Shown piece by piece: positions 23,201 through 35,514 of a DNA stretch of 64,000 bases. This DNA is from Chlamydiales bacterium STE3. GTDB lineage: Bacteria; Chlamydiota; Chlamydiia; Chlamydiales; Parachlamydiaceae. Position numbers and translations under genes: made by a program. How positions within the stretch are numbered: position 1 is the first letter of the stretch; each line of letters opens with the position of its first letter. The stretch spans positions 138,724 through 202,723 of the forward strand of contig VKHO01000025.1 in NCBI GenBank assembly GCA_011125455.1, read 5' to 3'. The notes under the pieces were generated by a model. It did not search any database and was not told the DNA's origin. It saw only the letters and a list, made by a program, of their open reading frames with translations.

Positions 23201-23951
23201 TTCACATGCCCATGTAACGTCTGATGCTACCTTTTTAGTTGCTGAAGAGCTACTAAAAAGGGCAAAGGACGTCGGGTTATCAGCCATTATTAATATCTGT
23301 ACTGATCTTGAAACCCTGGAAAGAGGGCTTCAGCTTTCTAAAGGCTATCCTTGGCTCTATCACACTGCCTCTACCTCACCACATGATGTTGACAGGTATG
23401 GGGAGGCTCATTTCCCTATTTTTGAACAAGCGGCCAAAAACGGTGATTTGAAGGGGATTGGTGAAACGGGATTGGATTATTTTTATGAACACTCCCCAAA
23501 AGAGCTGCAGAAAAAATATCTTGTGAAGTATCTCCATCTTGCCCTTGAGACAAAGCTTCCTGTGGTTATTCACTGCCGCGAAGCATTTAACGATTTTTTC
23601 GAAATCATTGACGCTGAATACCAAAGCGCAGATGGCATTTTGCATTGTTTTACAGGCACAATGGAAGAGGCTAAGCAAGTCATTAAACGCGATTGGTATC
23701 TTTCTTTGAGTGGAATTGTCACCTTTAAAAAAAGTGTGGCTTTACAAGAGGTTGCCAAGTGGGTCCCTTTAGAAAAATTACTGATTGAAACAGACACTCC
23801 TTACCTAGCACCACAAGGCAAAAGGGGGCGGCTAAACGAGCCAGCCAATTTACCGGAAATTGCCCAATTCATAGCTCATTTGAAGGGAATTTCTGTGGAT
23901 GAGGTTGCCCAAGCTACGGCACAAAACGCTTACGAGGTTTTTCGTTTATGA
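23181..23951 (+). CDS. tatD: TatD-family metal-dependent hydrolase
   Basis: IDSHAHV...IGETGLDYFY...IHCREAF...E.D.PYL motifs. Overlaps the dsbD 3' end. Confidence 0.85.
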   Translation: MSLHYIDSHAHVTSDATFLVAEELLKRAKDVGLSAIINICTDLETLERGLQLSKGYPWLYHTASTSPHDVDRYGEAHFPIFEQAAKNGDLKGIGETGLDYFYEHSPKELQKKYLVKYLHLALETKLPVVIHCREAFNDFFEIIDAEYQSADGILHCFTGTMEEAKQVIKRDWYLSLSGIVTFKKSVALQEVAKWVPLEKLLIETDTPYLAPQGKRGRLNEPANLPEIAQFIAHLKGISVDEVAQATAQNAYEVFRL

Positions 23952-24814
23952 AGCAGACAAAAGATTTGCAAAAAGTCATTGAGAGTGCTCGTGAATGTTA
24001 TGATCATTTTCTCTATTGGCCCCATTACTATAAAAAATTTCCACCTATAGAATGCTCGGTAGCTTTAAAAGAGGTGCATAAAGAAAAAAATCACGCCCTT
24101 TTTTATGCCTATCCTTTCGACCATAATTTGCTGACAACCATTCCCTATTTTAACGCAAGCCCAATGCAATTTGGTGCCAATCGCTACATTGCTTCTCAGG
24201 GGCCGCGCCATGAGACCTTAAGCGATTTTTGGGAGATGATTTGGGGAGAAAATAGCGAGCTGATTGTCAGTGTGACTAATGAAAGAGAAGAAGAAGGAAT
24301 GGGCCATCGCTATAAATTCGATGCGTTTTGGCCTCAACATCAATCCCAAGAATTTGGCAATTTCAAGGTAGCCCTTCTTAAAGATGAAGTCATCAAAAGG
24401 TGGGATGATGGACGTGTGGAGCAGATTCGTCTACGCCAATGTGAAGTCACTTATCAAGGAGAAAAGAAAATCGTCCACCAACTTCATATGGAAAATTGGA
24501 TGGATGGCAGTATTGTTTATCCAGAAAGCTTGATTGAACTGAGTTTATCTGCAGATCGCTGGAAAGGAGAAGGGCCTATTCTTGTACACTGTGCTGCAGG
24601 AATCGGTCGGACAGGCACATTTATTGCTTTCCACAGTCTCTACCACGATCTTCTAAATGCGTTAAAAAGAAGTGAGTCACACGCCCATTTTGATATTCTA
24701 AAAAGAGTTGCCGAAATGCGCGAAAAAAGATATGGGCCAATGATTGCGGCAAAAATTCAATTCTTACTTTTAGTCGAAGCCTTAGATTTAGCTCTACTAA
24801 AACTTTCTAATTAA
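23948..24814 (+). CDS. Classical (eukaryotic-type) protein tyrosine phosphatase
   Basis: VHCAAGIGRTGT is the HC(X)5R(S/T) P-loop. NRYIASQGP gives the pTyr-recognition and (I/V)AxQGP motifs. NWMDG is a WPD-loop-like acid and KIQF the Q-loop. The start overlaps the tatD stop (ATGA). Confidence 0.8.
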   Translation: MKQTKDLQKVIESARECYDHFLYWPHYYKKFPPIECSVALKEVHKEKNHALFYAYPFDHNLLTTIPYFNASPMQFGANRYIASQGPRHETLSDFWEMIWGENSELIVSVTNEREEEGMGHRYKFDAFWPQHQSQEFGNFKVALLKDEVIKRWDDGRVEQIRLRQCEVTYQGEKKIVHQLHMENWMDGSIVYPESLIELSLSADRWKGEGPILVHCAAGIGRTGTFIAFHSLYHDLLNALKRSESHAHFDILKRVAEMREKRYGPMIAAKIQFLLLVEALDLALLKLSN

Positions 24815-25400: not shown

Positions 25401-26240
25401 ATGCGCTTCATTATTCTTTTTTTAATATCCTTGCAATCTTTAGCAGCTTTTCAATATGAACTTGCTATTTGTGCTATTTTTCAGAACGAAGCCAGATTTC
25501 TTTCTGAATGGATTGATTACCATAAAAAAGTGGGTGTGCAACATTTTTACCTATTTAATAATTGCAGTGATGACAATTTCCAAGAAGCTTTAGCTCCTTA
25601 TATAGAAACAGGAGAAGTTTCTTTAATCGATTGGCCTTATCGTTACGAAGACGGGGATATTTCTAGGTGGAATCTGATTCAATGCAATGCTTATTCGGAA
25701 GGCTTAAAAAGAAGTAAGGGCGTTGCCCATTGGCTAGCATTAATTGACACAGACGAGTTTATCATTCCAGTTAGAACGAGAACTCTTCCAGAAACGCTGC
25801 AATTTTTTGAAGCTGTACCGGCAGTAGGAGTCAACTGGCAAATGTATGGCACTTCTTATGTCCCTGAAATTCCTTTTGGGGAACGGATGACAGAATCTCT
25901 TTTAATGAGGGCAGTGGACGATGCTCCTGAACATTTTGTTATTAAAAGCATTGTCCAGCCTTTAAAAACTTCGCTGCATGTGATTAATCCTCATTTCTTT
26001 TCCTTCTTAAAAGGCGTTTGTGTGAATACAAATGGGGAAGAAATCAAAGGTGCAATAGCTCCCTACATTGTCACTAACGTGCTGCGGATCAACCATTATT
26101 GGTGCCGCGATGAAAAATTTATGCGCGAACAAAAAATACCAAGACGCCATCACGCCCTTAAAGAAAATGAAAAGGATATTTTGAAAATAAACGATCGGTA
26201 CAATATGGTTCATGATGATGTGATACTAAATAAATGGTGA
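25401..26240 (+). CDS. Glycosyltransferase family 92 (DUF23) protein with N-terminal signal anchor
   Basis: AICAIFQNEARFLSEWIDYHKKVGVQHFYLFNNCSDD matches the GT92 N-terminal signature. A hydrophobic N-terminus is present. Confidence 0.6.
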   Translation: MRFIILFLISLQSLAAFQYELAICAIFQNEARFLSEWIDYHKKVGVQHFYLFNNCSDDNFQEALAPYIETGEVSLIDWPYRYEDGDISRWNLIQCNAYSEGLKRSKGVAHWLALIDTDEFIIPVRTRTLPETLQFFEAVPAVGVNWQMYGTSYVPEIPFGERMTESLLMRAVDDAPEHFVIKSIVQPLKTSLHVINPHFFSFLKGVCVNTNGEEIKGAIAPYIVTNVLRINHYWCRDEKFMREQKIPRRHHALKENEKDILKINDRYNMVHDDVILNKW

Positions 26241-26243
26241 AAA

Positions 26244-26867
26244 ATGAAAAAAAAATTTCAATTTATCCTTTTTGCCTTTTTAACTTTTTGCAACCTGCAG
26301 GCCACTTTGCCGGAGCCTTATGCTTCAATTCATGTTTTGCCATTTGATGGACATGGGTGGTTTGGGAATCAGGAACCATTAAAAAATATCCTTCATGCGG
26401 GGTCGATTAATACGGTCATTGAGGTGGGATCGTGGCTTGGTTCCTCAACACGTTTTATTGCTTCTGAGCTTCCTGAAGATGGCGTCGTCTACGCGGTTGA
26501 CACGTGGCTTGGAACTCCGGAAGAAGTGCTTCATTGCACGGATCCTCGTCTCCCTTACCTCTACCAGCAATTTTTATCGAATGTGATCCATGCTGGTTTG
26601 ACGAAAAAGATTGTCCCTATCCGTATGCACTCACAAGAAGCTGCTAATGCGCTTCATTTAAAAGCAGGCCTTATTTATCTTGACGCTTCGCATGAAACAG
26701 AAAATGTTTACAAAGATATTTTAGCTTGGTATCCGCATTTAGCAGAAGGAGGGATGATGTGTGGAGATGATTGGCTATGGCCGACCGTTCAGGTTGCTGT
26801 GATGAATGCCAGTCAAGTGCTTCAGCGTAAAGTGCATAGTGTAGAAAACTTTTGGTGGTTTGAATAG
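26244..26867 (+). CDS. Class I SAM-dependent methyltransferase (Methyltransf_24/TylF-like) with signal peptide
   Basis: VIEVGSWLGSSTRFIA...YLDASHETENVYKDILAWYPHLAEGGMMCGDDW pattern. Confidence 0.6.
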   Translation: MKKKFQFILFAFLTFCNLQATLPEPYASIHVLPFDGHGWFGNQEPLKNILHAGSINTVIEVGSWLGSSTRFIASELPEDGVVYAVDTWLGTPEEVLHCTDPRLPYLYQQFLSNVIHAGLTKKIVPIRMHSQEAANALHLKAGLIYLDASHETENVYKDILAWYPHLAEGGMMCGDDWLWPTVQVAVMNASQVLQRKVHSVENFWWFE

Positions 26868-28760: not shown

Positions 28761-30509
28761 TCAAGCAGCAATTTTTGCCTCCAAAATAGTTGATTGAATG
28801 AGCTCTTGTAAATGAAGCATCAGGTTGCTTTCCCAGTCAGCAACTTCTTTAAGCTTAAAAACGCTTGATTTTTTTTGAAGACAGGTTTCTATTTGATCGA
28901 TAAGAGGTTTTTTAGAGTCGAACCTTGTAGCCAGTCCAATTTCTTCTAAGAACGCGGCATTAACTTCTTCCCACGGATAGGAATTCATTAATAATAGATG
29001 GCTTTCGGTCGAGAAAGCTTCAATTACAGTGGCCCCTCCTGCTTTAGAAATACCCATATGAGAAATATTCATCATCTCATTCATTTCGGGAGGAGTTAAT
29101 AATCCATGAACAGTAAATTGCTCTTGTTTATTTGTCTTTTTAATTTTTTCTTGAAATTCAATTTGAAGATTTAAGTTTTTTCCACATATAAAAATAAACT
29201 TCAATGGGAGATGAGGAGCTGATTGCAGAAGCTCTTCAAAAATACCTTTAATGGCACCGGTACTATGTTTTCCCATGACAATAAATATAGGGATTTCATG
29301 TTCTTTAATATCCCATTTCTTTCGCAATCTTTGAAGATCTAGGTTATCGTCAATTTTATAAAAATTAGAACAAGGATATCCAATTAGTTCAAACTGGGTT
29401 TTCAAAGCTCCTATAGGAACTTGTAATATTTGGCTTATTTTTTGCATAAGGATGTCTTCTGAATCAGCTACATTATATTTGTCTAAGCTACAGTAGCTTT
29501 CAAAAAGAGGTTTGAACATGCTTGGACGAAATATGGGTAACCAAAACTTAGTGTTTTCTGGCACATTCCTATAATACGCTGCTAATGACGGGCATAATTC
29601 AAAATCGGGATGAAACATTCTAAAGGGAATTCCAAAAGAGGCAAGGGCGATGTCATCTGAGGTATAAGAACGCGTTGAAATAATTAAATCAGGATTGATC
29701 CCTGCTATTTTTTGCTTCAGCCTCGCTAATAAATTATTGGGTATATATTGTTGAATTTCTCGATTTAATTTTTTTCTTCCAGGAATGACACTAAAATCGT
29801 TTGTTTTTTGAAAGATGGATGAATAAATCATGTCATAGGTATAGGTTCCTGTGGCAATCATGACGGGGTCTGCTTCTTTGGCAATATCTTCAACATCGAT
29901 AATAATAGGAAGTATGCGATCCTGGTGTTTTAAATAGTGAGCCATTGATTCTGCAACCGAGAAATTACCACCACTAGCAGTAGTTGTGATAATGACAATC
30001 GTGAAAGGATCTTCAATTTTTCTTGGTTTTAATCTATACAGGGGAACGTTTGCTGCAACTACGAAATCGTGAATTTCTTTGCTATATTCTTCTACCCATT
30101 TTTTCCCGTAGGGACCGTGGTGTTGTAAGGCATATGTTAGAGCATCTTCAGGGGAATGTTTGGGATTACCAAATAACAAACAAACTTCAATTAAAGCTCG
30201 TGAAAAAGCTGCATGAGCAGCATTGGATGTACCATCCTCAGAAAGTTTGATAACAATAGGCAAAATATTATTTTTATAAGCTTTAAAAACAATATCAGCA
30301 GCTTTTAGATCTTTCATGTAATAAGAAAGATCAAAATGTAATTTACTTTCAAAGGGATGGCGAAAAAACTTTTCACCTATCGAGGTAATTAAAGTACTAT
30401 TTTCGATATCGAAAGTCTCTCTGAGGGCTTCTAACGAATCATAGGCAAAACAATGTAGGTTCGATAGGCTCCCACAAAAAACAACAATATGGAAAATAAA
30501 ACTTCGCAT
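28761..30509 (-). CDS. GT28-family (MGDG-synthase/MurG-like) glycosyltransferase with N-terminal extension and signal peptide
   Basis: FTIVIITTTASGGNFSVAESMAHYL resembles the MGDG-synthase N-domain, and the C-terminal ISKAGGATVIEAF resembles Glyco_tran_28_C. About 160 aa of extra N-terminal domain. Confidence 0.55.
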   Translation of the reverse strand: MRSFIFHIVVFCGSLSNLHCFAYDSLEALRETFDIENSTLITSIGEKFFRHPFESKLHFDLSYYMKDLKAADIVFKAYKNNILPIVIKLSEDGTSNAAHAAFSRALIEVCLLFGNPKHSPEDALTYALQHHGPYGKKWVEEYSKEIHDFVVAANVPLYRLKPRKIEDPFTIVIITTTASGGNFSVAESMAHYLKHQDRILPIIIDVEDIAKEADPVMIATGTYTYDMIYSSIFQKTNDFSVIPGRKKLNREIQQYIPNNLLARLKQKIAGINPDLIISTRSYTSDDIALASFGIPFRMFHPDFELCPSLAAYYRNVPENTKFWLPIFRPSMFKPLFESYCSLDKYNVADSEDILMQKISQILQVPIGALKTQFELIGYPCSNFYKIDDNLDLQRLRKKWDIKEHEIPIFIVMGKHSTGAIKGIFEELLQSAPHLPLKFIFICGKNLNLQIEFQEKIKKTNKQEQFTVHGLLTPPEMNEMMNISHMGISKAGGATVIEAFSTESHLLLMNSYPWEEVNAAFLEEIGLATRFDSKKPLIDQIETCLQKKSSVFKLKEVADWESNLMLHLQELIQSTILEAKIAA

Positions 30510-30522
30510 CAGGGATTCTCCG

Positions 30523-31686
30523 TTAATAATGAATCCTAATTAATAATTCATTCACTCGATTATGATATAAATTGGCATAGCAAATAACGCGGTCGTCTAT
30601 AAGCCTTTTGAAAAAACTAGGCAGATATCTACAAGAAGACTCTTCACAATTCTTGTCTAATTGATGCCAGTTAATAGTGAGCTGCCGCGAACATGTGACT
30701 TCAATTGAAAGCTCAGAATCAGAAGTTAGCCAATGATCAGATTTGCTTTTGGCAACAAAAATTAATTTAAGTACCCTTTCTTCTAAGTTTGAAAAACGGT
30801 GTTTTTCTTGCTGGTACTTTTCGATGGAGTCAGCATCTAGCCTGGCTTTTTTTATGGTAAGGAATTTGTAATGGCGTGTGTAAATATTTTCAAATTGCTT
30901 TTGCGTTGTAACTTGAATGTTTTGTAAAGTGGTTATTTGTTGATCAATTTCTGGACAAAACTTCTTAATTTCCTCAAGAATTTCATCAAAATGGTAAGGA
31001 AAAAGATAAATAGCTGTTTTTGCTGCTTCTAAAGCATCCTCAAATGTAAGGGGAGTATCTCTAAGGCGATATCCTCCTAAATCAATTAAAGCAATTTTAC
31101 CAATGCCGTTTTCTATCATTAAGGGAAGATTATCACATCTTATTAAAGGGATATTGCCATCAGTTGATTGATAGGGATGAATAGGGGCTAAAATGTCAGG
31201 TAAGATGGATTGGCATAAAAAACCGGTAAACTCTCTAACAGCAAGAACAAAGCTCTTTTTGTTATCCTCATAAAGAGCGATTTGTTCTCTCTGTTTAACA
31301 TCGACAATAGGAAATTTTTCTTCGATGTTAAATTGAGCATAGGGTTTAGCTTTTGGGATTAAAAGGGTTTGATAACCATTTTTCAGACATAAATCACGGG
31401 CTTGCCACATAGCAAAAAAACGCCTGATACTTCTTTCATTCCCTAAGGCCTTAAAAATGATGGGTAAGTTCGGAGGAATGTAAACTGGCGTTATACCCTT
31501 TGTAGCTCGTGGTAGTTGGTCAAGAGATCCACAAGCAATAGATTGAGTAATGAATTGCTTGGCTAAATGGTAGTTCTTAGCATTAAGATAATGCCTTCTA
31601 ACTTGATATCCACGCCAAATGCTCTGTATTTTAATAATAGGCCCAATTGCTGGGCCTACTGTTGTAGGATTAAATTCTATTTGCAC
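30523..31686 (-). CDS. Hypothetical protein with N-terminal IQ calmodulin-binding-like motif
   Basis: IQSIWRGYQVRR equals IQxxxRGxxxR exactly. The rest is uncharacterised (contains GKIALIDLGG). Overlaps the upstream GT32 gene by 10 nt. Confidence 0.5.
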   Translation of the reverse strand: MQIEFNPTTVGPAIGPIIKIQSIWRGYQVRRHYLNAKNYHLAKQFITQSIACGSLDQLPRATKGITPVYIPPNLPIIFKALGNERSIRRFFAMWQARDLCLKNGYQTLLIPKAKPYAQFNIEEKFPIVDVKQREQIALYEDNKKSFVLAVREFTGFLCQSILPDILAPIHPYQSTDGNIPLIRCDNLPLMIENGIGKIALIDLGGYRLRDTPLTFEDALEAAKTAIYLFPYHFDEILEEIKKFCPEIDQQITTLQNIQVTTQKQFENIYTRHYKFLTIKKARLDADSIEKYQQEKHRFSNLEERVLKLIFVAKSKSDHWLTSDSELSIEVTCSRQLTINWHQLDKNCEESSCRYLPSFFKRLIDDRVICYANLYHNRVNELLIRIHY

Positions 31687-32660
31687 TTCTGTTTATTTTT
31701 TTTCTTTTTATGGGTGCACCAAGAACCGTCCCATAGATGGATAGCTAAAGATTCTGGGCTTATGTAACTAATAATTTCTTCACGGGTTACGTCCCTTTGT
31801 TTCCATGGTAAAGGATATAGATAACTGCAGGGAAGAATTAGCACTTGTTCTTCACCGCTAGCTAAGACAGCTTGGCAAGCTCGACTAATGAGACCTGGCC
31901 CTGTGCGTTTAATAATACCTTCTTGAGGGGCGTCAGCTACCGAACGGAGATTTTCGAGACAATATTTCATAACAGCACTATTTTTGGCTGCTCCCATGAC
32001 AGCAGAACCCACAAAAAATGGCTCACCATAATGTTTTCCAATATAGTTCAGTTCAAAGCAACTAAAAAAGCCTATATTTTGAACAATCAAATCTTGAAAG
32101 GAATTTAAGCAGACAACATCAGCATCACTGTAAATACCTCCAAACTGATAAAGTAATTCAATTCGGAGTATATCTGCTTTTTCTGCCCATGTTGTTGCTT
32201 GTTCAAAAGCTAATTGCACTTTTTTATTAGTCCAAATGAAGTCACTTAAATCCTGATCAGTCCAAATTTTTATTGTCCAATGAGGATGATGGGTTTTCCA
32301 AGTATCAAAAGCAGAGGCAACTTGAAGAGGAATATCTGAACCTAACCAAATAAGGTGAATGATTGGGGGAATAGAAAATTGTTGAGGAATTACGCTATAA
32401 TCTTGTTTAGGAAGTCTTTTAAATTGATCGCAAAATAAAGAAAAGTTTTTTTCGACAGCCTGGACATCCTTGTCATGGATAAAAGATAGCTCAGAATCAC
32501 TTCTTTGCCATTTCATGGCATCCAAAAATGATGTAGATGTAAAGCCATAGGTTGATTGCCTATGCTTTAATAAGAGGTCAATCTCATAAGGAATTTTAGC
32601 TTCTAAAAAGAAAAAAGAGGACACAAGGATAAAAAAGGAAGTAAAAAAATTTAAGTTCAT
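31677..32660 (-). CDS. GT32-family glycosyltransferase (DxD sugar-binding region, Och1/Gb3-synthase/TcdA-like)
   Basis: IIHLIWLGSDIP...W...HPHW...IW and GGIYSDADVV (DxD). Signal anchor present. Confidence 0.65.
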   Translation of the reverse strand: MNLNFFTSFFILVSSFFFLEAKIPYEIDLLLKHRQSTYGFTSTSFLDAMKWQRSDSELSFIHDKDVQAVEKNFSLFCDQFKRLPKQDYSVIPQQFSIPPIIHLIWLGSDIPLQVASAFDTWKTHHPHWTIKIWTDQDLSDFIWTNKKVQLAFEQATTWAEKADILRIELLYQFGGIYSDADVVCLNSFQDLIVQNIGFFSCFELNYIGKHYGEPFFVGSAVMGAAKNSAVMKYCLENLRSVADAPQEGIIKRTGPGLISRACQAVLASGEEQVLILPCSYLYPLPWKQRDVTREEIISYISPESLAIHLWDGSWCTHKKKKNKQKCK

Positions 32661-32681
32661 AGCTATTTTTGGAGTTAATTG

Positions 32682-34277
32682 TTAATGGCTTAGAATCGAC
32701 TCTATCTTATGACATATATCAACTTGATATTTCAAACTTTTTTTTTGGTGTGGGTCGAGAAATTTATCAAGGATACTTCCAACTACCCGCAACGACCAAT
32801 AAGTAGCAAAGTAGCGCTGCGCTTCCTTTGTCGCAATATCCGTAGGAACATGTGAAAAATATTCTTGTTTATAGATATTTTGAATTTCTGAAATTTTTTC
32901 TTCATTGTATCGTCCCATGCTTCTTGCTGCTATCTTAACTGTTAATAAAGCTTCCTCGAGTTCGTTGATAGCAAACCCTATCGGTTTAGATTTCGGAGAC
33001 ATTGAACGATGGAAATGACTTAAATCAATATAAGTCACACATTCATTATCTAAATCTACAAGCCAATTGCTATGATTAGGATCCCCATGTGTGAAGCTTA
33101 GTAAGAGAGGCATTTTGATAAAATCTTGTTTTAGCTGACTCCAATGATCGCGTAATTTGGAAGTCAATTCTTTAAAAAAAGCGTTTTTTTCTAATTTATC
33201 AAAGATAGCTTGAATATCTTTTTCAAAGATACAGATGTAGTCTTGAGGAATTTCAGGGACTAGAGATCTCATGGATAAATGTAGATTAGCGTTAGCTTTT
33301 GCACATAATTTAATTGCCTCTTGACTGTCAAACATGAGTTCACAAAGCGGCTTGCCAGAAACAAAACTCATTCCAATAAATGCAAAGCCTTTTTCTTGAT
33401 AGTCGAAATAAATTTGTGGAACTTTAACAAAAGGAACCTTTAATGCTTCAATTTGTGCATAGCCCTTAAGCTCGCTATCGAACCGTGTTCGATAATGCTC
33501 TCTCCAAAAAACTTTTACTACCATACATGGGTATCCATTTTTATTTTTGATAAAACAAAGAATATCTCCAGAGAGGCCAGTCATTCCAAGATCTTGACCC
33601 AAATGAAAGGTTAAAGGAAATTGCGTTACAGGTATGATTTGTTTTGTTACAATTTCTTCTTCTGTCTTTTTTCGAACTAACTGAAGAATGGCTCGGTGGG
33701 TGTATTCTACCTCGGAAGGAATGAAAATATTTTGCTGAAGAAAGTAATTGAAGACTTTTTCTGGGAAGCCTTTTTTAGCCTCTTCGAAATTTCTTTTTGA
33801 TAATAAATGACGAAGCTTTGTAGAGGAATTATGTTGATGGTACAGCTCGCAGGAAGATCCAATTTTTGTTGGGCGGTTATTAAGGACACTGAAGCTATTG
33901 GGAAGGGGATTAGTTAATCTCGGAATGACAAGATACATTAATTTTGAGGGCTCATGAATGGGGCGCATTCGGATATTGATGAGATCAGAGCCTAGGATAT
34001 GGTAAATTTTAGCGATTGTAGGATTTGCCTCTAATTCAGCGAGAGCAGCTTTGTAGGATAGCTTGGAAATAATTACATTAGGCATGTCCTTAAACATGAT
34101 TTTTAGGAGTGTTTTTCGAATTTTATCGTTCGTTCGAAAAGGCTTAGTTGGATTAGAATCTTTATAAATAATTGTTACTTGTTTGATTCCGTTAAATAAT
34201 GCGTAATGGACACTTTCTAAGTGTCCTTTGTGAGGGGGATCAAAAGATCCTCGGTAAATGGCTACATCACAAGTCAT
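32682..34277 (-). CDS. Bifunctional cytidylyltransferase-like (HxGH) / APH-choline-kinase-like kinase fusion protein
   Basis: N-terminal YRGSFDPPHKGH is the (T/H)xGH nucleotidyltransferase motif of the NadD/CCT/ECT superfamily. C-terminal HGDPNHSNWLVD...YIDLSHF matches the HGDxxxxN and IDxE/D motifs of APH/choline/ethanolamine kinases. Confidence 0.65.
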   Translation of the reverse strand: MTCDVAIYRGSFDPPHKGHLESVHYALFNGIKQVTIIYKDSNPTKPFRTNDKIRKTLLKIMFKDMPNVIISKLSYKAALAELEANPTIAKIYHILGSDLINIRMRPIHEPSKLMYLVIPRLTNPLPNSFSVLNNRPTKIGSSCELYHQHNSSTKLRHLLSKRNFEEAKKGFPEKVFNYFLQQNIFIPSEVEYTHRAILQLVRKKTEEEIVTKQIIPVTQFPLTFHLGQDLGMTGLSGDILCFIKNKNGYPCMVVKVFWREHYRTRFDSELKGYAQIEALKVPFVKVPQIYFDYQEKGFAFIGMSFVSGKPLCELMFDSQEAIKLCAKANANLHLSMRSLVPEIPQDYICIFEKDIQAIFDKLEKNAFFKELTSKLRDHWSQLKQDFIKMPLLLSFTHGDPNHSNWLVDLDNECVTYIDLSHFHRSMSPKSKPIGFAINELEEALLTVKIAARSMGRYNEEKISEIQNIYKQEYFSHVPTDIATKEAQRYFATYWSLRVVGSILDKFLDPHQKKSLKYQVDICHKIESILSH

Positions 34278-34611
34278 ATCACCTGCCCAAACTATTTGTT
34301 AAAAAATGAATTTATATACAAAGAACGGCCATCATATTTTTTGATCGCTATTGAAATCAAGATAGAATTATCAAAGTTGATAGTTTGTCTTAAGCACTTG
34401 CAGCTTCTTGTTGATGAACATCAAGATGGCAGATGAGTCAAGGTTGTTTGTTGCCTTTTCGATACTCCACTTCCACCAAGCACTCTTTTCAAAACGTTCA
34501 ATGGTTTTGTCATCAAATCTCATTTTAACAACTTTTTTGCCGGTAAGTTTTGCAATACGCCCCCCTTAATCAAATCAAGACAGTTTGAAAATCAAAGAGG
34601 GGAGAAGAAAT

Positions 34612-35514
34612 CTAAAGTAGGGGAGTGGGACGAGAATTAGAGATATCGGATTCTGAATTACTCTGATTTGATTCAAATTTATTAATAAGTTCCCAAATTT
34701 TCAACATGGCCATTATTCTTTTCCTATAAGTCTCGGCATCCTCTGTTATTGGTCCCCGATATTTATCTTCTGCGTATTTGTTTAGCCATATTTTTTTTAC
34801 TTTGTGGGGTGAATCGAACTTATCAAAAGCTTTAGTATCTGAAGAAAAATTACGTTCGTTCTCACTAACATTTATCTCTTCTTCAAAACTGTCTATGTTT
34901 AAAAGAATTCTTTTTCGTATAGTTTTTTTAGCGGTAAAGTAAGCATCGCTTAGAGAAGGAATAGAGGCTTTTATTTCTTTTACTTGGCTGCCCTTATCAA
35001 AAAAACAAGCCCAAATATACCATTTAAGCTTTCCCCAGATGCTTCTTGTTTTTTCAGCTAATCGCTTGTTTCGCGATCTCTGGTATATTTTTTCTAAGGC
35101 AGTAGGCGTAAGCTGAAGAGTATCCACAGTAGCCTTCATCTGCTTTAGTTCTTGGGTAACTCTTCCTTCCATGTCGATGGAGAAAATATCCGTTAAACGA
35201 AGAAGTTTTTTAATACCCGATGCGGCATCAATTTTTGTAGCCTTCTTATAGGGGTTGGTTCTAGAGTCATCAGCCTGGGCAACTTGGGAGATCAAATCTT
35301 TAGATATGGAGATAATTTCTTGGAAAGATAATTTTCTGCGACAGTTATCCCACCTTGAATTTTTCTCGAAAAAGTTATCATATTCTTTTGTCGAAAGCAC
35401 TGCAATTTTTGAGTTGCGATACCGTTGAACTTCGCAAATCCACGAATGGGAAGCTGAATTATCTGATGTCACTTGAGCTAAATATCGGCACCAATTTTCT
35501 AGACTAACAAACAT
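34612..35514 (-). CDS. Hypothetical protein
   Basis: 300 aa, charged, no motif recognised. Confidence 0.45.
   Translation of the reverse strand: MFVSLENWCRYLAQVTSDNSASHSWICEVQRYRNSKIAVLSTKEYDNFFEKNSRWDNCRRKLSFQEIISISKDLISQVAQADDSRTNPYKKATKIDAASGIKKLLRLTDIFSIDMEGRVTQELKQMKATVDTLQLTPTALEKIYQRSRNKRLAEKTRSIWGKLKWYIWACFFDKGSQVKEIKASIPSLSDAYFTAKKTIRKRILLNIDSFEEEINVSENERNFSSDTKAFDKFDSPHKVKKIWLNKYAEDKYRGPITEDAETYRKRIMAMLKIWELINKFESNQSNSESDISNSRPTPLL

What the first reader, a model, noticed from the sequence alone, without database searches (positions are those of the whole stretch)
28761..34277. Four-gene operon of eukaryote-like glycosylation machinery in an AT-rich segment
On the minus strand sit a cytidylyltransferase(HxGH)-APH-type kinase fusion, a GT32 DxD glycosyltransferase, an IQ-motif protein and a GT28/MGDG-synthase-like glycosyltransferase. 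They are spaced tightly or overlapping, and the segment is visibly more AT-rich than the flanking nrd and housekeeping DNA. Several products have N-terminal signal anchors like Golgi type II enzymes. The kinase plus cytidylyltransferase fusion would generate a CDP-activated alcohol (CDP-choline or CDP-ethanolamine-like) in one polypeptide, a domain order opposite to HldE and using a different kinase fold. This suggests horizontally acquired (possibly host-derived) glycolipid or glycoconjugate synthesis, or host-directed glycosylation.
Basis: partly seen in the sequence, partly recalled or inferred. Interest (0 to 1): 0.75.

Follow-up and report, generated by a model that had tools for sequence, protein, structure and literature searches.

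The report
Conserved chlamydial exported-glycosyltransferase and kinase operon
An amoeba-dwelling chlamydia carries a tightly packed four-gene operon, conserved only in its relatives, encoding two exported sugar-transferring enzymes, a kinase-like protein with a eukaryote-type calmodulin-binding motif, and an unusual two-in-one activating enzyme, which together look like machinery for acting at the host interface rather than an ordinary cell-wall pathway.

Summary
They form the most AT-rich 5.5 kb of the window (35.5% vs 39.4% GC). The window is Chlamydiales bacterium STE3, an Acanthamoeba symbiont.

The interpretation needs correcting in four places:
- **Cytidylyltransferase.** By sequence and predicted fold it is a NadD/NMNAT-type adenylyltransferase, not a CCT/ECT type. 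Its pyridine-recognition loops are altered, so CDP-choline is not specifically supported.
- **IQ protein.** It has a very divergent protein-kinase-like fold with conserved catalytic residues behind a conserved canonical IQ motif.
- **Signal anchors.** Those on both glycosyltransferases look like cleavable bacterial Sec signal peptides, conserved in orthologues. Both Leloir-type enzymes therefore leave the bacterial cytoplasm.
- **Eukaryotic origin.** The few labelled relatives are all bacterial (Chlamydiae, Oligoflexales, Verrucomicrobia). The GT32 profile matches host-targeting glycosyltransferase effectors (SetA, YeGT, PaTox, TcdA/B) better than yeast Och1.

The gene order is kept in at least four chlamydial genomes with different flanks, and about 15 contigs carry two or more of the genes.

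My best reading is a host-interface glycosylation/phosphorylation module, at confidence about 0.45. The substrates are unknown. I rate it a new variant of a known kind.

The parts
34278..34611 (-). 334-bp intergenic region upstream of the operon; probable promoter region with an AGGTG Shine-Dalgarno-like sequence just before the ATG
   Evidence: Sequence read. A -35/-10-like site lies at 34360-34331, but such sites are no more frequent here than in shuffled sequence, so this is only positional inference.
32682..34277 (-). Gene 1: bifunctional NadD-fold nucleotidyltransferase plus APH-fold kinase (531 aa; PHSC3_000900)
33708..34277 (-). Nucleotidyltransferase domain (aa 1-190): GSFDPPHxGH, KPFR, GSD and SSSxIR motifs invariant
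32685..33635 (-). APH-fold kinase domain (aa ~215-531): K255, E269, HGDPNxxN (397-404) and D418 invariant
31677..32660 (-). Gene 2: exported GT-A glycosyltransferase of the GT32/GT44 continuum (327 aa; PHSC3_000899)
   Evidence: Pfam Gly_transf_sug 51.6 bits. Profile vs PDB: SetA 3.4e-16, YeGT 1.5e-14, PaTox 4.2e-14, Och1 5.6e-10.
32598..32660 (-). Predicted Sec signal peptide of gene 2 (aa 1-21, cleavage ...LEA|KIPYE)
   Evidence: N-termini of 24 close homologues share an n/h/c architecture and a conserved A|EIPYS junction. SignalP was not run.
32118..32126 (-). DXD motif D179-A-D181 of gene 2
   Evidence: Invariant in a 36-sequence alignment, together with the IHLIW(L)G, K161, D163, R166 and Y177 positions.
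30523..31686 (-). Gene 3: IQ-motif protein with a divergent protein-kinase-like fold ('IQK', 387 aa; PHSC3_000898)
31588..31629 (-). IQ motif IQSIWRGYQVRRHY (aa 20-33)
   Evidence: Matches the full consensus [FILVM]Qxxx[RK]Gxxx[RK]xx[FILVWY]. The consensus is strict in 13 of 19 cassette orthologues and near-consensus in 4 more, at the same position.
30952..31524 (-). Kinase-like core of gene 3 (aa ~55-245): invariant K79, R183-x-D185-N186, D202 (IDLG)
   Evidence: Invariant in all 24 family members including distant paralogues. Assigning these residues to catalytic roles is an inference from the fold match.
28761..30509 (-). Gene 4: exported GT-B glycosyltransferase related to GT28 diacylglycerol glycosyltransferases (582 aa)
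   Evidence: ORF; NCBIfam UgtP models E 5e-16; PDB UgtP 8.8e-11 and MGD1 0.007; 57-62% identical orthologues.
30444..30509 (-). Predicted Sec signal peptide of gene 4 (aa 1-22, ...CFA|YDS)
   Evidence: All four cassette orthologues and most close relatives have a basic n-region, a short hydrophobic core and a small residue before a conserved xDS/T.
30015..30443 (-). Conserved N-terminal domain of gene 4 (aa 23-165) with no match to any known family
   Evidence: Highly conserved block FESKLHFDLSYYMKD...EDGTSNA...LFGN. No Pfam, NCBIfam or PDB hit. It aligns in many of the full-length relatives.
28815..30008 (-). GT-B catalytic region of gene 4 (aa ~168-565): TTTxSGGN G-loop and SKAGGATVxE donor-binding motif
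   Evidence: The alignment to UgtP covers ISKAGGATVIEA / ITKPGGITLTEA.

Best explanation
This is a conserved four-gene operon specific to environmental, amoeba-associated chlamydiae, and it works at the bacterium-host interface. Shown: both glycosyltransferases keep their catalytic motifs. The GT-A has the DXD and toxin-like UDP-sugar residues, and the GT-B has the UgtP-like donor motif. Both carry what look like cleavable Sec signal peptides. Inferred: they are exported from the bacterial cytoplasm into the periplasm or inclusion lumen, and possibly onward to the host. There they would use host-derived UDP-sugars, as secreted chlamydial GlgA does in the C. trachomatis inclusion. The GT-B would act on a diacylglycerol-like lipid, and the GT-A on a protein or a growing glycan. 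Shown: the third protein has a minimal, highly divergent kinase fold with a conserved Lys/Asp-Asn/Asp set, preceded by a conserved canonical IQ motif. Inferred: host calmodulin binds it and switches it on. This would mean it is translocated into the host cytosol, and it would phosphorylate a host target or a target made by the operon. Shown: the first protein joins a catalytically intact NadD-fold nucleotidyltransferase to a catalytically intact APH-fold small-molecule kinase. Inferred: it phosphorylates a small alcohol, sugar or riboside and then joins it to AMP (less likely CMP), making an NDP-activated compound in one polypeptide. The identity of that compound, and whether the other three proteins use it, is unknown.
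For: Domains and motifs. Cassette conservation: the order fusion-GT32-IQK-GT-B is kept in the window, L001, L003/L004/L005/L092 and L089, with unrelated flanking genes. Matching contig lengths in the three homologue tables suggest (an indirect inference) that about 15 contigs carry at least two cassette genes. P0193 is an IQK-N-terminus/GT-B-C-terminus chimera, as expected if the two genes are adjacent in yet another genome. Export: signal peptides are conserved in 24 GT32 and most close GT-B relatives. Host-directed flavour: the GT32 profile hits 38 host-targeting glycosyltransferase toxins or effectors, with SetA best at 3.4e-16, against Och1 at 5.6e-10. The IQ consensus is conserved at a fixed position. 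The IQK fold resembles minimal effector and atypical kinases (Bud32, Rio1, Lpg2603, WaaP, HopBF1, NleH, OspG). The fusion and IQK families have 27 and 24 clusters in 5.8 billion proteins, and the few that carry a label are chlamydial. IQK paralogues are scattered singly around chlamydial genomes, as effector families typically are. Precedents: secreted GlgA/GlgB using imported host UDP-glucose in the inclusion lumen (PMC11046441), and the calmodulin-activated, IQ-bearing kinase-fold effector SidJ (PMC6858067).
Against: No experiment or localisation data exists. Signal peptides were judged by inspection, not by a trained predictor. If the glycosyltransferases stay in the periplasm or inclusion lumen while IQK acts in the host cytosol, the four products would work in different compartments, which fits poorly with such tight operon coupling. 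The known toxin-type glycosyltransferases have no Sec signal. The PDB holds many toxin glycosyltransferase structures and few GT32 ones, which biases the ranking. The fusion gene also occurs alone (L088 at 49% identity, L006, L090), so it does not strictly need the glycosyltransferases. The IQ helix could be a structural element that does not bind calmodulin. GT-B relatives in other phyla are fused to LicD, sulfatase-type phosphotransferase, GT25 and GH16 domains, which points to the bacterium's own envelope glycans.
Confidence: 0.45

Rival explanations
1. The operon modifies the bacterium's own envelope, as an analogue of LPS inner-core or teichoic-type decoration. In this reading the fusion makes an activated precursor (as HldE does for ADP-heptose, or LicA/LicC for CDP-choline). 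The GT-B and GT-A build a glycolipid or glycan on the bacterial membrane, and the kinase-fold protein phosphorylates a sugar as WaaP does.
Against: Both glycosyltransferases carry conserved Sec signal peptides. That places Leloir-type enzymes where bacteria have no nucleotide sugars of their own. The conserved eukaryote-type IQ motif has no partner in bacteria. The fusion and IQK are absent outside a subset of Chlamydiae. No flippase, polymerase, ligase or lipid A/Kdo gene lies nearby.
Confidence: 0.3
2. The fusion is a choline or ethanolamine kinase plus CTP:phospho-alcohol cytidylyltransferase that makes CDP-choline or CDP-ethanolamine for glycoconjugate decoration or lipid synthesis.
Against: No hit to the choline-kinase family or to any CCT, ECT or TagD sequence or structure. 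Every significant hit of the transferase domain is NadD/NMNAT, followed by PPAT. The C-terminal motif is the NadD/PPAT-type SSTxxR, not the CCT-type RTEGISTS (plus family knowledge). No LicD or CDP-alcohol transferase was seen among the neighbouring ORFs scanned (about 20-53 kb) or in the cassette loci.
Confidence: 0.12
3. The fusion is an NAD-salvage enzyme, a functional analogue of NadR in which an APH-fold kinase replaces the P-loop ribosylnicotinamide kinase (riboside to mononucleotide to dinucleotide). On this view it is linked to the glycosyltransferases only by co-regulation.
For: NadD/NMNAT is the closest family by sequence and fold. In L001/L002 an NrtR-type regulator (NUDIX plus WHD_NrtR) lies directly upstream on the same strand. 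The fusion occurs without the glycosyltransferases in three genomes.
Against: Scores are far below the NadD equivalog cut-offs (28 vs 167 bits). The alignment to NadD shows an 8-residue deletion in the GPSYTxDT loop, and there is no tryptophan at the pyridine-stacking position (plus knowledge of NadD structures). NrtR adjacency is seen in one species only. The cassette linkage in about 15 contigs would be left unexplained.
Confidence: 0.1

Closest known systems
HldE (RfaE), the bifunctional heptose kinase / heptose-1-phosphate adenylyltransferase of LPS core synthesis
   Same: One polypeptide combines a kinase with an HxGH-superfamily nucleotidyltransferase, and the gene sits beside glycosyltransferases. 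The likely logic is the same: phosphorylate, then nucleotidylate.
   Different: The domain order is reversed. The kinase is APH/protein-kinase-like fold, not PfkB. The transferase is NadD-like rather than RfaE domain II. No HldE hit was found in any search.
NadD / NMNAT (and NadR as a kinase-NMNAT fusion)
   Different: Scores lie far below family cut-offs. The substrate loop is shortened by 8 residues and the stacking Trp is absent. The domain is fused to a non-homologous kinase and is not universally present in the clade.
Host-targeting GT-A glycosyltransferase effectors and toxins: Legionella SetA, Yersinia YeGT, Photorhabdus PaTox, clostridial TcdA/TcdB/TcnA (GT44) and the related GT32 family (Och1)
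   Same: The IHxIWxG, D-x-x-R, Y-x-D-x-D constellation and the profile matches (SetA 3.4e-16) are shared.
   Different: The protein is small (327 aa), has a cleavable Sec signal peptide, and lacks translocation, PI3P-binding or receptor domains. No target is known.
GT28 diacylglycerol glycosyltransferases: Bacillus/Staphylococcus UgtP(YpfP) and plant MGD1
   Same: C-terminal donor-binding domain and motif; these are the only solved structures hit.
   Different: Sec signal peptide; an extra 140-aa conserved N-terminal domain of unknown fold; the G-loop reads GGN where MGD1 has GGGH; scores lie far below the UgtP equivalog cut-off (58.5 vs 500 bits).
Legionella SidJ (calmodulin-activated, IQ-bearing kinase-fold glutamylase) and minimal effector kinases (Lpg2603, HopBF1, NleH, OspG)
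   Same: A kinase-like fold plus an IQ motif in a protein of an intracellular bacterium. Activation by a host factor is the expected logic.

Membership tests
HxGH nucleotidyltransferase superfamily (Pfam PF01467 CTP_transf_like) | HxGH motif, C-terminal SxxxxR-type motif, Rossmann-like fold, Pfam score above cut-off | tested here: met
NadD/NMNAT (NaMN/NMN adenylyltransferase) | Score above the NCBIfam equivalog cut-off | tested here: not met
   Best 28.2 bits vs cut-off 167 (NF000842); TIGR00482 26.9 vs 112.
NadD/NMNAT (NaMN/NMN adenylyltransferase) | Whole-domain homology and fold | tested here: met
NadD/NMNAT (NaMN/NMN adenylyltransferase) | Pyridine-mononucleotide recognition elements (GPSYTxDT loop; Trp-Tyr stacking pair) | tested here: not met
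   HMM alignment shows an 8-residue deletion in the loop and no Trp at the equivalent position. The roles of these residues come from published NadD structures, recalled from memory.
CCT/ECT/GCT cytidylyltransferases | Detectable homology closer than to other HxGH families; RTEGISTS-type motif | tested here: not met
APH / choline-kinase-like small-molecule kinases (PF01636) | Pfam above cut-off; ATP Lys and Glu; HxDxxxxN catalytic loop; metal-binding Asp; fold | tested here: met
Choline/ethanolamine kinase family proper (PF01633, LicA) | Family-level HMM hit | tested here: not met
HldE | N-terminal PfkB kinase plus C-terminal adenylyltransferase | tested here: not met
   Order reversed; no PfkB domain.
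GT32 (PF04488 Gly_transf_sug) | Pfam above cut-off and DXD motif | tested here: met
   51.6 vs 23 bits. D179-A-D181 invariant in 36 sequences.
GT44-type toxin/effector glycosyltransferases | Homology to the catalytic core | tested here: met
   PF12919 25.4 vs 23.6 bits, but over 21 residues only. Profile hits SetA 3.4e-16, YeGT, PaTox, TcnA, TcdA/B.
GT44-type toxin/effector glycosyltransferases | Delivery into host cells and glycosylation of a host protein | not testable with these tools
   Only a Sec signal peptide is seen.
GT28 / MGDG-synthase / UgtP | Pfam or NCBIfam scores above cut-offs | tested here: not met
   Glyco_tran_28_C 21.7 vs 22; UgtP equivalog 58.5 vs 500. MGDG_synth is not detected in the window protein, though it is in relative P0198.
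GT28 / MGDG-synthase / UgtP | Homologous donor-binding C-domain with the GG-T-E motif | tested here: met
   UgtP E 8.8e-11, MGD1 0.007. SKAGGATVxE is invariant.
GT28 / MGDG-synthase / UgtP | G-loop histidine (GGGH in MGD1) | tested here: inconclusive
   The orthologues read SGGN followed by F/Y/H/N. The position equivalence was judged by eye.
IQ calmodulin-binding motif (PF00612) | Pfam above cut-off and the full consensus | tested here: met
   25.7 vs 20.3 bits. Strict consensus in 13 of 19 orthologues.
IQ calmodulin-binding motif (PF00612) | Actual binding of calmodulin or a light chain | not testable with these tools
   No complex prediction or assay was available.
Protein-kinase-like fold | Bilobal fold match and conserved Lys / catalytic Asp / metal Asp | tested here: met
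SidJ-type calmodulin-dependent pseudokinase | Sequence or structural similarity to SidJ | tested here: not met
Sec (SPase I) signal peptide | Basic n-region, 10-15-residue hydrophobic core, small residues at -1/-3 | tested here: met
   Seen by inspection and simple counts across orthologues. No trained predictor was available.

The most novel reading that the evidence does not exclude
The operon reconstitutes a small Golgi-like glycosylation pathway outside the bacterium. Two Sec-exported Leloir glycosyltransferases would work in the inclusion lumen or host cytosol on host-supplied or operon-made donors. A NadD-derived enzyme would make a previously unknown ADP-activated sugar or alcohol. A new family of calmodulin-gated minimal kinases would couple the system to host Ca2+ signalling.
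Probability: 0.12. Interest if true: 0.85.

Novelty: new variant of a known kind. Interest (0 to 1): 0.6.

Why it matters
Environmental chlamydiae are a reservoir of host-manipulation strategies, and most of their accessory genes are unannotated. This operon brings together three things that searches here found undescribed:
- a NadD-fold transferase fused to an APH-fold kinase, with only about 27 clusters in 5.8 billion proteins;
- a kinase-fold family recognisable only by structure prediction, carrying a eukaryote-type IQ motif;
- Leloir glycosyltransferases with bacterial export signals.

If the glycosyltransferases do work outside the bacterium, this would extend the C. trachomatis glycogen paradigm, in which secreted enzymes use imported host UDP-sugars, to glycolipid or glycoprotein synthesis. 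If IQK binds calmodulin, it adds a second, unrelated kinase-fold lineage to the SidJ principle of host-factor gating. Each hypothesis is directly testable with recombinant proteins.

Tried and rejected
- **Exact look-up of the fusion.** It found nothing, although the identical STE3 protein is in the homologue table.
- **The single genome-contig scan.** It was swamped by ordinary nadD genes matching the SFDPPHxGH pattern. It returned no chlamydial locus and gave no taxonomic distribution. It only confirmed that the nearest non-family relatives of the transferase domain are NadD.
- **The metagenome scan with the IQK alignment.** It returned mostly solitary paralogues and only one further copy of a known cassette.
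- **Promoter/terminator scan.** No more sites than in shuffled sequence, so it was uninformative.
- **tRNA scan.** No tRNA or obvious integration mark next to the segment. The plasmid search with the GT-B found no match.
- **afdb50 fold library.** It was not available, so eukaryotic structural relatives of IQK could not be looked for.
- **Three cluster look-ups.** They gave few taxon labels, so no proper phylogeny of either glycosyltransferase was built.
- **Literature searches** for the organism, IQ/calmodulin in chlamydiae, a NadD-APH fusion, and chlamydial glycosyltransferase effectors. No description of these genes was found.
- **Rejected: the upstream 300-aa ORF (34612-35514) as a fifth member.** It is AT-rich but has no homologue in any cassette locus.
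- **Rejected: Golgi-type signal anchors and a lipoprotein signal for the GT-B.** The Cys is not conserved.


Full report
**Source and observation.** The window comes from Chlamydiales bacterium STE3. The three searched proteins are 100% identical to PHSC3_000898-900. STE3 is an obligate Acanthamoeba symbiont of the Parachlamydiaceae (PMC7225534).

The four ORFs lie on the minus strand at the stated coordinates, with spacings of 21 nt, a 10-nt overlap, and 13 nt. A 334-bp gap with a Shine-Dalgarno-like AGGTG precedes the first gene. Pfam confirms CTP_transf_like plus APH, GT32 (Gly_transf_sug, Caps_synth, TcdA_TcdB), IQ, and a marginal Glyco_tran_28_C. NCBIfam and PDB searches back the last call through UgtP-type diacylglycerol glucosyltransferases.

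The segment is 35.5% GC against 39.4% for the window, and it is the lowest 5.5-kb stretch. The four genes have a mean GC3 of 0.28 against 0.36 for the other 46 ORFs (p about 0.001). The flanks are nrdA/nrdB, an orphan 300-aa ORF, inositol monophosphatase and a cyclophilin.

**A conserved module.** The same order (fusion, GT32, IQ protein, GT-B) occurs in three further chlamydial assemblies (L001; L003/L004/L005/L092; L089). Protein identities there are 42-64%, and the flanking genes are unrelated.

Matching contig lengths across the three homologue tables suggest that about 15 contigs carry at least two of the genes. One database protein (P0193) is an IQ-protein N-terminus joined to a GT-B C-terminus. 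This is what a deletion between adjacent genes would give.

The fusion also occurs alone in three genomes. Solitary paralogues of the IQ protein (28-45% identical) are scattered in chlamydial contigs. The fusion and IQ families are tiny, at 27 and 24 clusters among 5.8 billion proteins. Most of those clusters carry no taxon label; the few that do are chlamydial.

**Gene 1, the fusion.** Both halves keep every catalytic motif. The transferase has GSFDPPHxGH, KPFR, GSD and SSSxIR. The kinase has K255, E269, HGDPNxxN and D418.

The transferase is cytidylyltransferase-like only in the Pfam superfamily sense:
- A family profile hits NadD over its whole length (1kam, E 1.8e-8), then other NadD/NMNAT and PPAT entries. 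It hits no CCT, ECT, TagD or HldE.
- Scores are nevertheless far below NadD equivalog cut-offs.
- The HMM alignment shows an 8-residue deletion in the NadD GPSYTxDT loop, and no Trp where NadD stacks the pyridine ring.

It is therefore NadD-derived, but it probably does not act on NaMN.

**Gene 2, the GT-A.** The DXD (D179-A-D181) and the IHLIWLG, K161, D163, R166 and Y177 positions are invariant in 36 sequences. From memory, these correspond to the UDP-sugar-binding residues of clostridial toxin glucosyltransferase domains.

A family profile hits 39 PDB sequences, of which 38 are host-targeting glycosyltransferase toxins or effectors. SetA scores 3.4e-16, YeGT 1.5e-14 and PaTox 4.2e-14, followed by TcnA, lymphostatin and TcdA/B. 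Yeast Och1 scores 5.6e-10. The PDB is biased towards toxins, so this is suggestive only.

The homologue family has about 100 clusters, and the labelled ones are all Chlamydiae.

K79, R183-x-D185-N186 and D202 are invariant even in distant paralogues. The IQ motif IQSIWRGYQVRRHY fits the complete consensus. It is strict in 13 of 19 cassette orthologues, and near-consensus in four more, at the same position. The design recalls SidJ, a calmodulin-activated kinase-fold effector with an IQ helix (PMC6858067). SidJ itself is not among the structural matches.

**Gene 4, the GT-B.** The C-terminal domain and its SKAGGATVxE motif align to UgtP (E 8.8e-11) and plant MGD1 (E 0.007). These are the only solved relatives.

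A 140-aa conserved N-terminal domain has no known relative. An exhaustive phmmer search finds 472 representatives at E <= 1e-3. Labelled ones are from Chlamydiales, Oligoflexales and Verrucomicrobia. Some relatives are fused to LicD, sulfatase-type phosphotransferase, GT25, GH16 or a Ser/Thr kinase domain. That links the family to phospho-decorated glycans.

**Export.** In all close homologues, both glycosyltransferases start with a basic n-region and a short hydrophobic core. A small residue then precedes a conserved mature N-terminus...QA|EIPYS in the GT32, and ...A|xDS in the GT-B. This is the pattern of cleavable Sec signal peptides, not of Golgi type II anchors.

Leloir enzymes outside the bacterial cytoplasm need an external nucleotide-sugar supply. 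The precedent is C. trachomatis, where GlgA/GlgB are secreted and use host UDP-glucose imported into the inclusion lumen (PMC11046441).

**Interpretation.** I favour a host-interface module, at confidence about 0.45. In this model:
- the exported glycosyltransferases use host donors on lipid or protein acceptors;
- the IQ kinase is gated by host calmodulin;
- the fusion activates a small molecule by phosphorylation followed by adenylylation.

The main rival, at 0.3, is decoration of the bacterium's own envelope in an LPS-core-like scheme. The component list, the WaaP similarity and the fusions seen in GT-B relatives support it. The signal peptides and the IQ motif argue against it.

The CDP-choline/ethanolamine model (0.12) and a NadR-like NAD-salvage model (0.1) remain possible for gene 1. 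None of the few labelled relatives is eukaryotic, so a eukaryotic or host origin has no support. The lower GC fits an accessory gene set, and the cassette's presence in different genomic contexts fits a unit that has moved.

**Limits.**
- No localisation, activity or binding data exist.
- Signal peptides were judged by inspection.
- The AF2 alignments are shallow (24 sequences), though confidence is high.
- Taxon labels were sparse, and no phylogeny was built.
- The genome-collection scan was lost to nadD matches.
- The AlphaFold database library was unavailable.

Noticed in passing
window 23948-24814 (+): A eukaryote-type protein tyrosine phosphatase (Pfam Y_phosphatase, E 5e-40) lies about 4 kb from the operon. 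It is another candidate host-directed enzyme.
   Followed up: no
window 25401-26240 (+) and 26244-26867 (+): A GT92-family glycosyltransferase (E 2e-22) is immediately followed by a Methyltransf_24 methyltransferase. Both have N-terminal signal-peptide-like segments, so they form a second pair of apparently exported sugar-modifying enzymes close to the operon. Neither has a homologue in the other cassette loci.
   Followed up: partly
window 34612-35514 (-): A 300-aa orphan ORF lies between nrdA and the operon. It is also AT-rich (GC 0.363), has no family hit, and has no counterpart in the other cassette loci.
   Followed up: partly
window 51998-53098 (+) and 48689-49384 (-): A Fic-domain protein and a small DnaJ-domain protein lie in the second AT-rich region of the window (GC3 0.27-0.28). 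They may be further accessory or effector-like genes.
   Followed up: no
L001 6464-7144 and L002 391-1071: An NrtR-type regulator (NUDIX plus WHD_NrtR) sits directly upstream of the fusion gene on the same strand in one chlamydial species. This hints at pyridine-nucleotide-linked regulation.
   Followed up: no
L001 9392-10365: The GT32 gene of this cassette is split into two overlapping pieces. This is a frameshift, either a pseudogene or an assembly error.
   Followed up: no
L107 208-1509: A solitary IQK paralogue begins with MGC..., which resembles a eukaryotic N-myristoylation/palmitoylation signal, and also carries a full IQ consensus (IQKIFKGFITRKDY).
   Followed up: no
P0193 (database protein, 270 aa): A chimera of the IQK N-terminus (49% identity over 156 aa) and the last ~115 residues of the GT-B (58%). 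It is either a natural deletion fusing the two adjacent genes or an assembly artefact.
   Followed up: partly
P0194, P0226, P0212, P0225, P0195, P0207, P0245 (relatives of gene 4): In other bacteria the same GT-B module is fused to LicD, sulfatase-type phosphotransferase, GT25, GH16 or a Ser/Thr protein kinase domain. The sulfatase fusions also carry N-terminal signal or TM segments.
   Followed up: partly
L088 11597-12703 and 12898-13956: Where the fusion gene occurs alone (49% identity), its neighbours are an adenylate-kinase-like protein, a faint chloramphenicol-phosphotransferase-like P-loop kinase and a large NRPS. None of the glycosyltransferases is present.
   Followed up: no
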